A DNA stretch of 16,569 nt, taken from a virus. Taxonomy: Duplodnaviria > Heunggongvirae > Uroviricota > Caudoviricetes. The notes under the pieces were generated by a model that had not been told where the DNA came from, did no database searches, and worked only from the letters and a program-made list of their open reading frames with translations. Below are positions 469 to 10,095 of this stretch, piece after piece; position 1 is the first letter of the stretch; the number at the start of each line of letters is the position of its first letter. The DNA is taken from the IMG/VR virus record IMGVR_UViG_2541047943_000001. The stretch is one strand, 5' to 3'. The position numbers and the translations under genes are program-made.

Positions 469-775
469 AAACCGGCCAAGGATAATCCGCTGAAGATTCG
501 CCGGTGGCTAAAGTGTGCCAAGAGTTCAATTTACGCAATTACTCCTGTCGATGCTATGCACCGTCTTTGTGAAGTCAATGGATACCTGATTTATTTCTGT
601 GCGCTGTATCGTCGCTGTACTCTTGCATTAATTATGACTGTAGCCTGACGGGGAACTCCTTCTGCACAAGTGTGGGGGAATAATCAAAAACGATGCACAC
701 CGGGGTTACCGGGTACACATATTTCATCATGCCAGCGAGTCCGGTTCTGGCACGGAAGAAACCGGACGTTATGAT

Positions 776-1186
776 TTAGTGCGGAAATATTTGTGTAGTG
801 TTCTGAATGTTCTCAGTAAAGAGTAATGAATTATCAAAGGTATAGTAATACCTTTTGTTTTCGTGGATATTTGTAATCCATCTGAAAACCCCTGCTGTAG
901 CAAGATTTTTCCTGTATTCGTAAAATGATAACTCTCCTGATTTGAATCCTTTTAAGGTGGCTTCTATAAGGCATTTATTTTTTGAAAATCTTACATTTAC
1001 AACCTTACCCTGTCCTTTTATTAAAACCGTATTATCGTTTTCAAGAACAAGATGAATATTCTCTGTGGCTAAATAGTAAATGTAATGTGAGACATTGTGA
1101 CGTTTTAGTTCAGAATAAAACCAGTGATAGTTTAAATTATTTCGCACTTTATCGAATATTTGTTTAAAAATGGCAACCTGAGCCAT
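776..1186 (-). CDS. hypothetical protein, low-GC accessory (moron-like) gene of unknown function
   Basis: Six-frame ORF 776..1201 (141 aa). The more likely start is the second ATG at 1186 ([14 protein letters not shown]...), preceded by GGAAGG at about 7 nt spacing. The ORF is markedly AT-rich compared with the flanking phage DNA. No motif I can assign to a known family. From memory, a diverged homologue exists as an uncharacterised ORF at the right end of lambda; this needs a database check. Confidence 0.7.
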
Positions 1187-1243
1187 TGTAGTACCTTCCA
1201 TGTGATATGAGGGGGCGTAGTCTGCACGATTATCTAAATTGCT

Positions 1244-1477
1244 TCAATCTGGTCTGACCTGTTTTCTGAGCAATTCAGTAATGTCACTCTTTTCTTTGTT
1301 TGCTTCAGGCGAAACTCTTTTTTCTGAGCACAGTCTCCGGCGGCAGGCTTCAATGACCCAGGCTGAGAAATTCCCGGACCCTTTTTGAACAAGAGCGATG
1401 TTAATTTGTTCAATCATTTGGTTAGGAAAGCGGATGTTGCGGGTTGTTGTTCTGCGGGTTCTGTTCTTCGTTGACAT
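1244..1477 (-). CDS. ribbon-helix-helix (Arc/CopG/MetJ-like) DNA-binding protein, 77 aa
   Basis: N-terminal pattern RNIRFPNQMIEQINIALVQKGSGNFSAWVIEACRRRL fits a beta-strand followed by two helices, typical of RHH repressors and antitoxins. It lies 42-57 bp upstream of, and co-oriented with, the 776..1186 gene. The N-terminal two-thirds match the right-end ORF of lambda as I recall it; the C-terminal 27 residues differ. Confidence 0.7.
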   Translation of the reverse strand: MSTKNRTRRTTTRNIRFPNQMIEQINIALVQKGSGNFSAWVIEACRRRLCSEKRVSPEANKEKSDITELLRKQVRPD

Positions 1478-1639
1478 GAGGTTGCCCTGTATTCAGTGTC
1501 GCTGATTTGTATTGTCTGAAGTTGTTTTTACGTTAGGTTGATGCAGATCAATTAATACGATACCTGCGTCATAATTGATTATTTGACGTGGTTTGATGGC
1601 CTCCACGCACGTTGTGATATGTAGATGATAATCATTATC

Positions 1640-1860
1640 GCTTTACGGGTCCTTTCCGGTGATCCGACAGGTTACGGGGCGGCGACCTCGCGGGTTTTCG
1701 CTATTTATGAAAATTTTCCGGTTTAAGGTGTTTCCGTTCTTCTTCGTCGTAACTTAATGTTTTTATTTAAAATACCCCCTGAAAAGAAAGGAAACGACAG
1801 GTGCTGAAAGCGAGCTTTTTGGCCTCTGTCGTTTCCTTTCTCTGTTTTTGTCCGTGGAAT
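1640..1860. other. cos: cos site: cosQ (about 1647-1653), cosN with the 12-nt cohesive-end sequence GGGCGGCGACCT (1677-1688), and cosB with R3 (about 1728-1746), an AT-rich IHF-type I1 region (about 1750-1780), R2 (about 1784-1800, inverted) and R1 (about 1827-1845)
   Basis: Sequence ...GATCCGACAGGTTACG|GGGCGGCGACCTCGCGGGTTTTCGCTATTTATGAAAATTTTCCGG... is the joined lambda right and left ends. R-element repeats of the GTTTCC(T/G)TTCT type are visible in three copies, with R2 and R1 forming an inverted pair (gaaaggaaacgacag / ctgtcgtttcctttc). The site sits immediately upstream of nu1. Confidence 0.9.
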
Positions 1861-1865
1861 GAGCA

Positions 1866-2385
1866 ATGGAAGTCAACAAAAAGCAGCTGGCTGACATTTT
1901 CGGTGCGAGTATCCGTACCATTCAGAACTGGCAGGAACAGGGAATGCCCGTTCTGCGAGGCGGTGGCAAGGGTAATGAGGTGCTTTATGACTCTGCCGCC
2001 GTTATAAGATGGTATGCCGAAAGGGATGCTGAAATTGAGAACGAAAAGCTGCGCCGGGAAGTTGAAGAACTGCGGCAGGCCAGCGAGACAGATCTCCAGC
2101 CAGGGACTATTGAGTACGAACGCCATCGACTTACGCGTGCGCAGGCCGACGCACAGGAGCTGAAAAATGCCAGAGACTCCGCTGAAGTGGTGGAAACCGC
2201 ATTCTGTACTTTCGTGCTGTCGCGGATCGCAGGTGAAATTGCCAGTATTCTCGACGGGATCCCCCTGTCGGTGCAGCGGCGTTTTCCGGAACTGGAAAAC
2301 CGACATGTTGATTTCCTGAAACGGGATATCATCAAAGCCATGAACAAAGCAGCCGCGCTGGATGAACTGATACCGGGGTTGCTGA

Positions 2386-2411
<26 letters not shown>
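1866..2411 (+). CDS. nu1: terminase small subunit (cosB-binding, winged-HTH N-terminus)
   Basis: 181-aa ORF MEVNKKQLADIFGASIRTIQNWQEQGMPVLRGGGKGNEVLYDSAAVI..., essentially identical to lambda gpNu1 as recalled. It lies directly downstream of cos and its 3' end overlaps the start of A by 26 nt, as in lambda. Confidence 0.96.
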
Positions 2412-4817
<2,406 letters not shown>

Positions 4818-8376: not shown

Positions 8377-8955
8377 ATGGCCATAAAAGGTCTTGAGCAG
8401 GCCGTTGAAAACCTCAGCCGTATCAGCAGAACGGCGGTGCCCGGTGCCGCCGCAATGGCCATTAACCGCGTTGCTTCATCCGCGATATCGCAGTCGGCGT
8501 CACAGGTTGCCCGTGAGACAAAGGTACGCCGGAAACTGGTAAAGGAAAGGGCCAGGCTGAAAAGGGCCACGGTCAAAAATCCGCAGGCCAGAATCAAAGT
8601 TAACCGGGGGGATTTGCCCGTAATCAGGCTGGGTAATGCGCGGGTTGTCCTTTCGCGCCGCAGGCGTCGTAAAAAGGGGCAGCGTTCATCCCTGAAAGGT
8701 GGCGGCAGCGTGCTTGTGGTGGGAAACCGTCGTATTCCCGGCGCGTTTATTCAGCAACTGAAAAACGGCCGGTGGCATGTTATGCAGCGTGTGGCCGGGA
8801 AAAACCGTTACCCCATTGATGTAGTGAAAATCCCGATGGCGGTGCCGCTGACCACGGCGTTTAAACAAAATATTGAGCGGATACGGCGTGAACGTCTTCC
8901 GAAAGAGCTGGGCTATGCGCTGCAGCATCAACTGAGGATGGTAATAAAGCGATGA
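8377..8955 (+). CDS. Z: tail completion protein gpZ
   Basis: 192-aa ORF MAIKGLEQAVENLSRISRTAVPGAAAMAINRVASSAISQSASQVARETKV... has the same length and sequence pattern as lambda gpZ. Its stop overlaps the U start. Confidence 0.94.
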   Translation: MAIKGLEQAVENLSRISRTAVPGAAAMAINRVASSAISQSASQVARETKVRRKLVKERARLKRATVKNPQARIKVNRGDLPVIRLGNARVVLSRRRRRKKGQRSSLKGGGSVLVVGNRRIPGAFIQQLKNGRWHVMQRVAGKNRYPIDVVKIPMAVPLTTAFKQNIERIRRERLPKELGYALQHQLRMVIKR

Positions 8956-9354: not shown

Positions 9355-10095
9355 ATGCCTGTACCAAATCCTACAATGCCGGTGAAAGGTGCCGGGACCA
9401 CCCTGTGGGTTTATAAGGGGAGCGGTGACCCTTATGCGAATCCGCTTTCAGACGTTGACTGGTCGCGTCTGGCAAAAGTTAAAGACCTGACGCCCGGCGA
9501 ACTGACCGCTGAGTCCTATGACGACAGCTATCTCGATGATGAAGATGCAGACTGGACTGCGACCGGGCAGGGGCAGAAATCCGCCGGAGATACCAGCTTC
9601 ACGCTGGCGTGGATGCCCGGAGAGCAGGGGCAGCAGGCGCTGCTGGCGTGGTTTAATGAAGGTGATACCCGTGCCTATAAAATCCGCTTCCCGAACGGCA
9701 CGGTCGATGTGTTCCGTGGCTGGGTCAGCAGTATCGGTAAAGCGGTGACGGCGAAGGAAGTGATCACCCGCACGGTGAAAGTCACCAACGTGGGACGTCC
9801 GTCAATGGCAGAAGATCGCAGCACGGTAACAGCGGCAACCGGCATGACCGTGACGCCTGCCAGCACTTCGGTGGTGAAAGGGCAGAGCACCACGCTGACC
9901 GTGGCATTCCAGCCGGAAGGCGCAACCGACAAGAGCTTCCGTGCGGTGTCTGCGGATAAAACAAAAGCCACCGTGTCGGTCAGTGGTATGACCATCACCG
10001 TGAAAGGTGTTGCTGCAGGCAAGGTCAACATTCCGGTTGTATCCGGTAATGGTGAACTTGCTGCGGTTGCAGAAATTACCGTCACCGCCAGTTAA
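9355..10095 (+). CDS. V: major tail tube protein gpV with C-terminal Ig-like (Big_2-type) domain
   Basis: [45 protein letters not shown]... is 246 aa. The C-terminal [25 protein letters not shown]...TVTAS is the dispensable Ig-like domain of lambda gpV. The six-frame ORF from 9325 carries a 10-aa upstream extension. Confidence 0.95.

What the first reader, a model, noticed from the sequence alone, without database searches (positions are those of the whole stretch)
776..1477. Low-GC two-gene cassette (RHH protein plus unknown 136-141 aa protein) between the lysis genes and cos
Seen in the sequence: two co-oriented minus-strand genes separated by about 45-57 bp, transcribed against the late operon, in a region visibly more AT-rich than the flanks. 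The upstream gene encodes a small ribbon-helix-helix protein; the downstream gene has no recognisable catalytic motif. A small RHH protein followed closely by a second small protein resembles type II toxin-antitoxin or defence modules and also autoregulated moron operons. The Rz-to-cos interval is a known site for lysogenic-conversion genes in lambdoid phages (bor in lambda). From memory, lambda has diverged homologues of both ORFs at its right end, but there they are separated by roughly 650 bp containing another small ORF, whereas here they are adjacent. Their function is not known to me.
Basis: partly seen in the sequence, partly recalled or inferred. Interest (0 to 1): 0.6.

Follow-up and report, generated by a model that had tools for sequence, protein, structure and literature searches.

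The report
Known ynfO–ydfO accessory genes near cos
These are the already catalogued but still uncharacterised ynfO/ylcI-type and ydfO/ybcV-type genes that lambda and most E. coli lambda-like prophages carry beside their DNA-packaging site. The evidence fits two separable accessory ('moron') genes better than a toxin–antitoxin or defence pair.

Summary
Two minus-strand genes lie between Rz and cos. One is a 136/141-aa DUF1398 protein (776-1186/1201) at 31% GC, the lowest in the window. The other is a 77-aa YlcI/YnfO (DUF3950) protein (1244-1477).

Both are known families, identical to RefSeq proteins. The region matches 4791 of 5426 complete E. coli genomes. The DUF1398 protein closely matches E. 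coli K-12 YdfO, whose structure is solved (2HH8). That fold has no other significant relative.

The ribbon-helix-helix (RHH) call for YnfO gets only modest support.

- 32 distant DUF1398 loci lack any YnfO gene.
- YnfO occurs in 155 phage records and DUF1398 in only 43, none of them Stx phages.
- A mosaic junction lies inside the ynfO tail.
- PADLOC finds nothing.

The adjacency seen here is the Qin-type arrangement. Lambda and DLP12 hold 613 bp carrying lambdap79/ybcW where this window has 54 bp. A 2026 preprint reports lambdap79 as the trigger of the Vulcan NADase defence.

Published K-12 data place a perfect FNR box 61 bp upstream of ynfO and a PdhR-type palindrome upstream of the DUF1398 gene.

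Verdict: known accessory genes, biochemical function still unknown.

The parts
776..1186 (-). DUF1398 (YdfO/YbcV-family) gene, 136 aa. An alternative in-frame ATG at 1201 gives 141 aa.
1187..1243 (-). Spacer between ynfO and the DUF1398 gene. It holds GGAAGG (Shine-Dalgarno) and a conserved -10-like GATAAT (1234-1229).
   Evidence: Read from the sequence. The block is homologous to lambda up to window 1260. The promoter role is inferred; the strict consensus scan found none.
1251..1259 (.). GGTCTGACC palindrome (PdhR-box type) at the 3' end of ynfO, upstream of the DUF1398 gene.
   Evidence: Only exact match in the window. PdhR gSELEX peaks with this box at the K-12 ybcV/ybcW and ynfO/ydfO loci; ybcV mRNA is 10-fold lower in a pdhR mutant (PMC7660256). 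Present in 65 of 103 phage-type loci.
1244..1477 (-). ynfO/ylcI-family gene, 77 aa. Residues 1-~52 are the basic arm plus the DUF3950 (RHH-like) domain. Residues ~55-77 are a variable tail.
   Evidence: PF13132 E=2e-20 and NF041551. Alignment A1. AF2 helices 19-32 and 34-54. hhalign against RHH proteins P=0.0036. RefSeq WP_001331705.1.
1261..1314 (.). Mosaic junction: 54 bp here stand where lambda has 613 bp carrying lambdap79/ybcW.
   Evidence: BLASTN blocks: 1315-1920 is 97.5% identical to lambda, 599-1260 is 82% identical, and there is no homology between them.
1538..1551 (.). Perfect FNR box TTGATGCAGATCAA, centred 67.5 nt upstream of the ynfO ATG.
   Evidence: Only match in the window. 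The same sequence is bound by FNR in vivo (ChIP-chip) and in vitro (EMSA) at the K-12 nohA and nohB loci (PMC1802558). Present in 107 of 110 ynfO loci, which are closely related.
1511..1516 (-). -10-like hexamer GACAAT. It puts the FNR box at about -41.5 from a predicted start near 1503-1504 (class II geometry).
   Evidence: Read from the sequence. This is inference only; no transcript data.
1677..1688 (+). cosN cohesive-end sequence GGGCGGCGACCT.
   Evidence: Exact string. Annotated cos at the homologous place in phage DE3.
469..598 (.). 130-bp stretch that stands where lambda has the 439-bp bor cassette.
   Evidence: Homology to lambda stops after Rz and resumes at window 599 = L002 1501. 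bor lies at L002 1093-1386.

Best explanation
The locus is two separable accessory ('moron') genes in the variable Rz-to-cos slot of a lambda-like prophage, in the Qin-type arrangement. It is not an obligate two-component system.

(1) ynfO encodes a small, very basic protein (pI 10.9). Its first ~52 residues probably form a dimeric ribbon-helix-helix DNA-binding domain, followed by a dispensable, hypervariable tail. It is most likely transcribed leftward, away from cos, in the lysogen. The inferred promoter is an activator-dependent class II promoter using the perfect FNR box at 1538-1551. The protein would then act as a stand-alone transcription regulator whose target is unknown.

(2) The DUF1398 gene is an AT-rich, probably H-NS-silenced and stress- or PdhR-responsive gene. 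It has its own weak promoter in the ~75 bp upstream, plus possible read-through from ynfO. Its product is a soluble cytoplasmic protein built from two alpha-alpha-beta3 repeats (YdfO fold, 2HH8). It has no catalytic signature, so it most likely acts by binding a host macromolecule.

The adjacency here simply reflects absence of the lambdap79/ybcW cassette that separates the two genes in lambda and DLP12.

Shown: gene identity, fold, distribution, mosaic structure, and the TF-binding sequences with published binding in K-12.
Inferred: promoter directions, H-NS silencing, DNA binding by YnfO, and a binding rather than catalytic role for DUF1398.
For: Family and fold.

Separability:
- 32 distant DUF1398 loci, including K-12-type ycgX, have no YnfO ORF within 6 kb. 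The best HMM E-value is 0.55, while positive controls score 1e-36 to 1e-40.
- YnfO matches 155 phage records and DUF1398 only 43. About 68 of the YnfO records are Stx-converting phages; none of the DUF1398 records is.
- In BP-4795, the DUF3950 gene sits alone between Rz and HNH/terS.
- One K-12-like genome holds three contexts: adjacent, ybcW between, and solitary.

Independent evolution:
- The ynfO/cos block is 97.5% identical to lambda and the DUF1398 block 82%. The junction lies inside the ynfO tail.
- Near-identical ynfO alleles sit next to DUF1398 alleles of either 99-100% or 74-75% identity.
- The YnfO tail is hypervariable.

Both genes are under purifying selection.

Accessory status:
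- lambdap78 is non-essential in lambda CRISPRi and in earlier literature (PMC10695390).
- The DUF1398 gene has the lowest GC of the window.
- The bor and lambdap79 cassettes are present or absent in the same slot.

Host wiring:
- FNR ChIP and EMSA on the identical box.
- PdhR box and a 10-fold pdhR effect on ybcV.
- ybcV/ybcW up more than 1000-fold when the H-NS-interacting T4 MotB is overexpressed.
- ydfO induced 116-fold by an ionic liquid.
- A ylcI transcript overlaps ybcW in K-12.

No PADLOC hit. Lambda-vir loses lambdap79 by recombination with Qin, which yields this arrangement.
Against: - Among close phage-type copies the pairing is very regular. 79 of 80 viral contigs with this ynfO allele have DUF1398 45-48 bp downstream on the same strand. 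No terminator was detected between them, so co-transcription and functional coupling are plausible.
- A small RHH-like gene followed by a small protein is the classic type II TA layout.
- FNR had only marginal effects on the reporter tested in K-12. That reporter faced the noh direction; the ynfO direction was never tested.
- No sigma-70 consensus promoter was found for either gene.
- Overexpressed ybcV alters glycogen content. ydfO lacked transposon insertions in one TraDIS study. The protein may therefore have a stronger cellular effect than 'accessory' suggests.
- The biochemical activity of both proteins is untested.
Confidence: 0.6

Rival explanations
1. Regulator-effector mini-operon. 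YnfO is a transcription factor that controls the DUF1398 gene, for instance through the GGTCTGACC palindrome just upstream. The pair would work together as one autoregulated moron.
For: - Same strand, 42-57 bp apart, no detected terminator.
- 79 of 80 close loci keep the pair.
- The palindrome is retained upstream of DUF1398 in both the Qin-type and lambda-type arrangements.
- RHH-like DNA-binding domain.
Against: - YnfO is common without DUF1398 (Stx phages, BP-4795) and DUF1398 without YnfO.
- The palindrome matches a PdhR box with published PdhR binding and is absent from 38 of 103 loci.
- Upstream regions of lambda-type and BP-4795-type ynfO share no operator-like element.
Confidence: 0.15
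2. Type II toxin-antitoxin, abortive-infection or other defence pair. DUF1398 would be a toxin or effector held in check by the RHH antitoxin YnfO.
For: - Layout resembles RHH-antitoxin/toxin operons.
- The best (insignificant) Foldseek geometry for YnfO is the RHH antitoxin ParD2.
- Weak sub-threshold Pfam hit of DUF1398 residues 3-40 to HEPN_AbiA_CTD (E=0.014, 15.8 bits against a cut-off of 27).
- Prophage accessory slots often hold defence genes.
Against: - Pairing is not conserved in either direction.
- An opposite-strand gene separates them in lambda and DLP12.
- The YnfO tail, where antitoxins usually bind toxins, is hypervariable and holds the recombination junction.
- DUF1398 alleles are shuffled against one ynfO allele.
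- No PADLOC model.
- Solitary ycgX-type copies are found in a large share of E. coli genomes without a partner.
- TraDIS flagged ydfO, not ynfO, as insertion-free, which is the opposite of the TA expectation.
Confidence: 0.06
3. Packaging- or virion-related role. DUF1398 would be a 'head' or 'envelope' protein as some annotations say, and/or YnfO would be a cos-proximal DNA-binding factor that modulates terminase action.
For: - PHROG 413 is labelled 'head protein' and lambdap78 'putative envelope protein'.
- ynfO always sits immediately next to the packaging module, divergent from terS/Nu1, in both lambda-type and HNH/terS-type phages.
Against: - Both genes are antisense to the late operon.
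- lambdap78 is non-essential for lambda growth.
- The genes persist in cryptic prophages without head genes and as solitary chromosomal copies.
- DUF1398 is a soluble 136-aa protein (GRAVY -0.41) solved by solution NMR. It has no match to virion proteins in PDB or BFVD.
- YnfO homology begins at the ATG, and the cos-side upstream DNA differs completely between phage types.
Confidence: 0.04

Closest known systems
E. coli K-12 Qin prophage ynfO-ydfO (YdfO structure PDB 2HH8)
   Same: - Same two families, same order, same strand and same short spacer next to a Nu1-type gene (L008).
- YnfO is 96-97% identical. YdfO is 75% identical by tblastn and matches at E=1.4e-69.
   Different: The DUF1398 allele differs: about 75% identical to K-12 ydfO, and 100% identical to RefSeq WP_000079508.1. 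Here the prophage still has lambda-like head and tail genes. In K-12 Qin the neighbourhood is rearranged (that last point is from my own knowledge).
Phage lambda right end / DLP12: ylcI - ybcW (lambdap79) - ybcV (lambdap78), plus bor
   Same: - Homologous genes in the same Rz-to-cos slot and orientation.
- The cos/ynfO 5' block is 97.5% identical.
- Same FNR box and same palindrome upstream of DUF1398.
   Different: - Lambda has 613 bp with the plus-strand lambdap79 gene where this window has 54 bp, and a bor cassette where this window has 130 bp.
- The YnfO tail differs: 64 aa in lambda against 77 aa here.
- lambdap79 is reported as the activator of the Vulcan NADase defence (preprint 10.64898/2026.09.04.749371). 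This window lacks it.
Ribbon-helix-helix DNA-binding proteins (Arc/Mnt, CopG, NikR N-domain, ParD)
   Same: - In-register match of the RNIRFP strand, helix A, the G-x-x-x-x-S turn and helix B (hhalign P=0.0036; 0 of 200 shuffles reach the score).
- Predicted helices at 19-32 and 34-54 after an extended basic N-terminus.
   Different: - No significant sequence or structure database hit to any RHH family.
- Dimerisation and DNA binding are untested.
Classic lambdoid morons (bor, lom)
   Same: - Non-essential genes in accessory slots of the late region.
- Opposite or independent transcription and atypical GC.
- Presence/absence polymorphism among related phages.
   Different: bor and lom encode envelope proteins with known serum-resistance or adhesion phenotypes (established knowledge). 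No phenotype is known here, and the proteins are cytoplasmic.
E. coli ycgX and other solitary chromosomal DUF1398 genes of Enterobacteriaceae
   Same: Same family, at 28-53% identity and the same length.
   Different: - Solitary, in varied host contexts, without any YnfO gene. Examples: next to iraM, or downstream of yeeE/yeeD-like genes.
- Not in a prophage late region.

Membership tests
DUF1398 / YdfO-like (Pfam PF07166) | Full-length match to the family HMM above the gathering score | tested here: met
   147 bits against a cut-off of 22; residues 13-131 cover profile positions 1-119 of 119.
DUF1398 / YdfO-like (Pfam PF07166) | YdfO fold (two alpha-alpha-beta3 repeats) as in PDB 2HH8 | tested here: met
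YlcI/YnfO family (Pfam PF13132 DUF3950; NCBIfam NF041551) | Match above the curated cut-offs | tested here: met
   72.8 bits against 25 (Pfam). 35.2 bits against 30 (NCBIfam).
Ribbon-helix-helix superfamily | Strand-helix-turn-helix sequence pattern alignable to known RHH proteins | tested here: inconclusive
   hhalign P=0.0036 in register, and 0 of 200 column shuffles reach the score. However, hhalign probability is only 9-12%, and there are no Pfam RHH hits.
Ribbon-helix-helix superfamily | RHH three-dimensional fold | tested here: inconclusive
   The monomer AF2 model (pLDDT 68.9) has helices 19-32 and 34-54 after an extended N-terminus. Foldseek has no hit with E<=0.001. The best geometry is ParD2, TM 0.54 normalised to the target, E=10.
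Ribbon-helix-helix superfamily | Obligate dimer that binds DNA through an antiparallel beta-ribbon | not testable with these tools
   Needs a dimer model or an experiment.
Type II toxin-antitoxin module | Conserved co-occurrence of the two genes across homologues | tested here: not met
   None of 32 distant DUF1398 loci has YnfO. 155 phage records have YnfO against 43 with DUF1398. BP-4795 has YnfO alone.
Type II toxin-antitoxin module | Single tight operon (adjacent or overlapping genes) as a conserved feature | tested here: not met
   The genes are adjacent here (42-57 bp). In lambda and DLP12 they are about 656 bp apart with an opposite-strand gene between them.
Type II toxin-antitoxin module | Toxin related to a known toxin family or fold | tested here: not met
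Type II toxin-antitoxin module | Toxicity of the downstream protein neutralised by the upstream one | not testable with these tools
   Needs an experiment.
Known anti-phage defence systems (PADLOC-DB v2) | Match to a defence-system protein model | tested here: not met
   Only Csx23 at E=0.025 (12.6 bits) for DUF1398, and nothing for YnfO.
Moron / lysogenic-conversion cassette | Accessory slot, own orientation, atypical composition, presence/absence among related phages | tested here: met
   Minus strand between Rz and cos. GC 0.314 against 0.559. The bor, lambdap79 and DUF1398 cassettes vary between lambda, Qin-type and Stx phages.
Moron / lysogenic-conversion cassette | Dispensable for lytic growth | tested here: met
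   From the literature, for the lambda homologue only: lambdap78 scored non-essential (PMC10695390).
Moron / lysogenic-conversion cassette | Own promoter active in the lysogen | tested here: inconclusive
   A perfect FNR box with published FNR binding, a PdhR box and a K-12 ylcI transcript all point that way. No consensus promoter was found, and there are no transcript data for this locus.
Virion 'head protein' (PHROG 413 label) / 'envelope protein' (lambdap78 label) | Structural role in the particle or envelope location | tested here: not met
   Antisense to the late operon. Non-essential. Soluble protein solved by NMR, with no structural match to virion proteins. Kept in solitary chromosomal loci.

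The most novel reading that the evidence does not exclude
The pair is a conditional two-gene module wired to gut physiology. An FNR-activated RHH regulator (YnfO) and a PdhR/H-NS-controlled effector of unique fold (DUF1398) would together give the lysogen an anaerobic fitness, superinfection-exclusion or anti-phage phenotype. This activity has escaped all defence catalogues. Lambda itself would then carry an unrecognised conversion or defence function at its right end.
Probability: 0.07. Interest if true: 0.6.

Novelty: already known. Interest (0 to 1): 0.25.

Why it matters
These genes are among the last uncharacterised genes of phage lambda, and they sit in most E. coli genomes, so their function is a genuine though modest open question.

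This analysis narrows it in three ways.
- It removes the toxin-antitoxin/defence expectation.
- It explains the 'adjacent versus separated' difference as presence or absence of the lambdap79 cassette, a reported trigger of the Vulcan NADase defence.
- It gives testable regulatory leads. The FNR site previously assigned to nohA/nohB is better placed to drive ynfO, and a PdhR-type site lies upstream of the DUF1398 gene.

It also shows that the database labels 'head protein' and 'envelope protein' for this family are unsupported.

Tried and rejected
1. Read-through fusion. In this window the two ORFs share a frame and are separated by a single TGA. A 233-aa 'fusion' protein (P0013) exists in the database. 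It has W at the TGA, so it is a gene-calling artefact from an alternative genetic code. About half of 88 adjacent loci are out of frame or interrupted. Rejected.

2. HEPN_AbiA_CTD hit of DUF1398. E=0.014, below the cut-off, and covers only 38 residues. Not pursued.

3. Fold relatives of DUF1398.
- BFVD gave nothing at E<=0.001.
- afdb50 was unavailable.

4. Sequence searches of YnfO against PDB, as a single sequence and as a profile. No RHH hit.

5. Rfam scan of 1-2500. Only chance miRNA-like hits at the cosB/Nu1 inverted repeat.

6. Shared operator upstream of ynfO in lambda-type and BP-4795-type phages. The upstream DNA is unrelated.

7. Many 'hits' in unrelated taxa (Pseudomonas, Kitasatospora, Flavobacterium and others) are lambda DNA. 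They come as ~3.5-kb or ~48.5-kb contigs with lambda gene order, so they are contamination or control DNA, not real distribution.

8. The statement that YdfO overexpression raises oxidative-stress resistance (PMC4077768, citing Wang et al. 2010). From memory, that paper concerns YfdO of CPS-53, so this may be a name confusion.

Full report
**What is there**

The window starts in the lysis cassette of a lambda-like prophage, with Rz at 4-468 and Rz1 at 224-406. It runs through cos (GGGCGGCGACCT, 1677-1688) into Nu1 (1866-2411) and the head and tail genes.

Two minus-strand ORFs lie between Rz and cos: 776-1201 (141 aa) and 1244-1477 (77 aa). For the first, the ATG at 1186 is the better start. 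It has GGAAGG 7 nt upstream, it is the start used by RefSeq, and it is where all family members begin. That gives 136 aa and a 57-bp spacer.

The DUF1398 gene has 31.4% GC against 55.9% for the window and is the lowest 411-nt stretch in it. ynfO is only mildly low at 44.9%.

**Identity**

The downstream protein is a full-length DUF1398 member (PF07166, E=3e-43). The upstream one is a YlcI/YnfO protein (PF13132 DUF3950, E=2e-20; NCBIfam NF041551).

The DUF1398 protein matches E. coli K-12 YdfO, whose NMR structure is 2HH8, at E=1.4e-69.

The 1.5-kb region is 100% identical to a Qin-site prophage of E. coli ECAMP047, where the genes are WP_000079508.1 and WP_001331705.1. Some match exists in 4791 of 5426 complete E. 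coli genomes, and at least 80% of the region in 2051.

These are therefore known, catalogued genes. The literature available here gives no function, only expression data:
- ydfO is induced 116-fold by an ionic liquid (PMC4077768).
- ybcV and ybcW are about 10-fold lower in a pdhR mutant, with a PdhR box between them (PMC7660256).
- ybcV and ybcW rise more than 1000-fold when T4 MotB, which interacts with H-NS, is overexpressed (PMC7827196).
- Overexpressed ybcV alters glycogen content (PMC2853380).
- lambdap78 is non-essential for lambda growth (PMC10695390).

**Structure**

The fold is effectively unique, with no enzyme, toxin or virion relative. The labels 'head protein' (PHROG 413) and 'putative envelope protein' (lambdap78) have no support. 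The gene is antisense to the late operon and is dispensable. Its product is soluble, and the gene is retained in places with no virion genes.

For YnfO, the AF2 monomer model (pLDDT 68.9) has an extended basic N-terminus followed by helices 19-32 and 34-54. Foldseek is insignificant; its best geometry is the RHH antitoxin ParD2 at E=10. Pfam sees only DUF3950 even at E<=10.

P=0.0036, and 0 of 200 column-shuffled controls reach the score. 'RHH-like' is therefore plausible but not proven.

**Is it a pair?**

Among close phage-type copies, yes. 79 of 80 viral contigs with this ynfO allele have DUF1398 45-48 bp downstream.

The coupling breaks everywhere else.
- The family is confined to Enterobacteriaceae: 196 clusters at 50% identity in 1.84 billion proteins.
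- 32 loci with distant DUF1398 genes (28-53% identity) have no YnfO ORF within 6 kb. They come from K-12-type ycgX, Citrobacter, Klebsiella, Kluyvera, Pseudocitrobacter and Salmonella diarizonae. The best HMM E-value is 0.55, against 1e-36 to 1e-40 for positive controls. Their neighbours are unrelated host genes.
- Conversely, YnfO matches 155 phage records and DUF1398 only 43. About 68 of the YnfO records are Stx-converting phages; none of the DUF1398 records is.
- In BP-4795 the DUF3950 gene stands alone between Rz and an HNH/terS packaging module.
- In E. coli genomes the YnfO N-domain occurs at 9861 places, up to 12 per genome. DUF1398 occurs at 8879 places, and that count includes the widespread ycgX.

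**Mosaic structure**

- Window 1315-1920 (cos plus the first 54 ynfO codons) is 97.5% identical to lambda.
- Window 599-1260 (DUF1398 plus 75 bp upstream) is 82% identical.
- The 54 bp between them (1261-1314, the YnfO tail) stand where lambda has 613 bp carrying the plus-strand lambdap79/ybcW gene.
- Likewise, 130 bp (469-598) stand where lambda has bor.

The Rz-to-cos slot thus holds up to four cassettes (bor, DUF1398, lambdap79, ynfO), and this window has two of them.

The same ynfO allele is found next to DUF1398 alleles of 99-100% or 74-75% identity. The YnfO tail is hypervariable. Both genes are under purifying selection (dN/dS 0.18-0.32).

A 2026 preprint reports lambdap79 as the activator of the Vulcan NADase defence. 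It also reports that lambda-vir escapers delete lambdap79 by recombination with Qin (10.64898/2026.09.04.749371). That recombination yields exactly the adjacent arrangement seen here.

**Regulation leads**

A perfect FNR box, TTGATGCAGATCAA (1538-1551), is the only match in the window. The identical sequence is bound by FNR in vivo and in vitro at the K-12 nohA and nohB loci (PMC1802558). Those authors tested only the noh-facing reporter and saw marginal effects; ynfO was not listed as a neighbouring gene in that study.

On the ynfO strand, the box centre lies 67.5 nt before the ATG. A -10-like GACAAT (1516-1511) places the box at about -41.5, which is class II geometry. This is my inference from the sequence.

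Upstream of the DUF1398 gene, the GGTCTGACC palindrome (1251-1259) matches the published PdhR boxes of ybcV and ydfO. It is followed by a conserved GATAAT. The generic promoter scan found no consensus promoter, which fits activator-dependent or silenced promoters.

**Conclusion**

The best reading (confidence about 0.6) is two separable, host-regulated accessory genes. One is a small RHH-like DNA-binding regulator. The other is an AT-rich, normally silent gene for a cytoplasmic protein of unique fold that probably works by binding rather than catalysis.

Rivals:
- A regulator-effector mini-operon (0.15). It is kept alive by the regular adjacency and the lack of a terminator.
- A TA/defence pair (0.06). 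It is disfavoured by non-conserved pairing, the intervening gene in lambda, the hypervariable tail, the absence of a toxin fold or PADLOC hit, and solitary ycgX copies.
- A virion or packaging role (0.04).

The genes are already known and the biochemical function remains open. Interest is low to moderate.

Noticed in passing
window 2386-3036 (junction at 2616-2624): The terminase large-subunit gene A encodes only 216 aa here. The otherwise 99.6-100% identical prophage of NZ_CP196265.1 encodes 641 aa. The difference is an in-frame 1275-bp deletion flanked by a 9-bp microhomology, so this copy should be unable to package DNA.
   Followed up: partly
window 1621-1639: Fur-box-like palindrome GTAGATGATAATCATTATC, 16 of 19 matches to the Fur consensus. 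None of 200 shuffles gives a match. It lies between the FNR box and cosN and is identical in lambda except for one flanking base. I know of no reported role.
   Followed up: partly
window 1538-1551: The perfect FNR box, published as a nohA/nohB target with 'marginal' effect, is better positioned for the divergent ynfO/ylcI gene. That gene was not listed as a neighbour when the study was done.
   Followed up: partly
L012-L035, L045-L048 (genome-contig hits): Dozens of assemblies of unrelated taxa (Pseudomonas, Kitasatospora, Brevibacillus, Flavobacterium, Shewanella and others) contain ~3.5-kb or ~48.5-kb contigs with lambda's Rz-bor-lambdap78-lambdap79-ylcI order at 99-100% identity to the lambda proteins. 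This is lambda control or spike-in DNA left in the assemblies.
   Followed up: partly
L002 1676-2209 (lambdap78): The annotated 177-aa lambdap78 ORF starts at an upstream GTG. Its first 41 codons cover DNA homologous to the spacer and ynfO 3' end of the Qin-type arrangement. The real protein is probably the 136-aa form starting MAQVAIF. The 64-aa YnfO homologue (L002 2743-2937) is unannotated in the DE3 record, and no feature lies under the match in lambda records J02459 and NC_001416.
   Followed up: partly
protein P0013 (233 aa) and relatives: Database 'fusion' proteins with both PF13132 and PF07166 carry W at the TGA stop of ynfO. They are products of gene calling with a TGA=Trp code on E. 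coli phage DNA.
   Followed up: yes
L001 15091-15426; L042 7105-7428: An IraM (anti-adaptor) gene lies in the same prophage between the antiterminator/tRNA region and the lysis genes. The solitary K-12-type DUF1398 paralogue ycgX also sits about 700 bp from iraM. This suggests the ycgX-iraM region is a remnant of a lambdoid late region.
   Followed up: no
L155 4001-4201: In the PICI-like element vB_KppS-Ant, a clear YnfO-family ORF (HMM E=2.7e-12) lies antisense inside an annotated 324-aa hypothetical CDS. One of the two calls is probably wrong.
   Followed up: no
window 1785-1841: An imperfect inverted repeat just upstream of Nu1 gives the only, chance-level, Rfam miRNA-like hits. It also self-matches in reverse orientation in the BLASTN comparison with lambda.
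   Followed up: no
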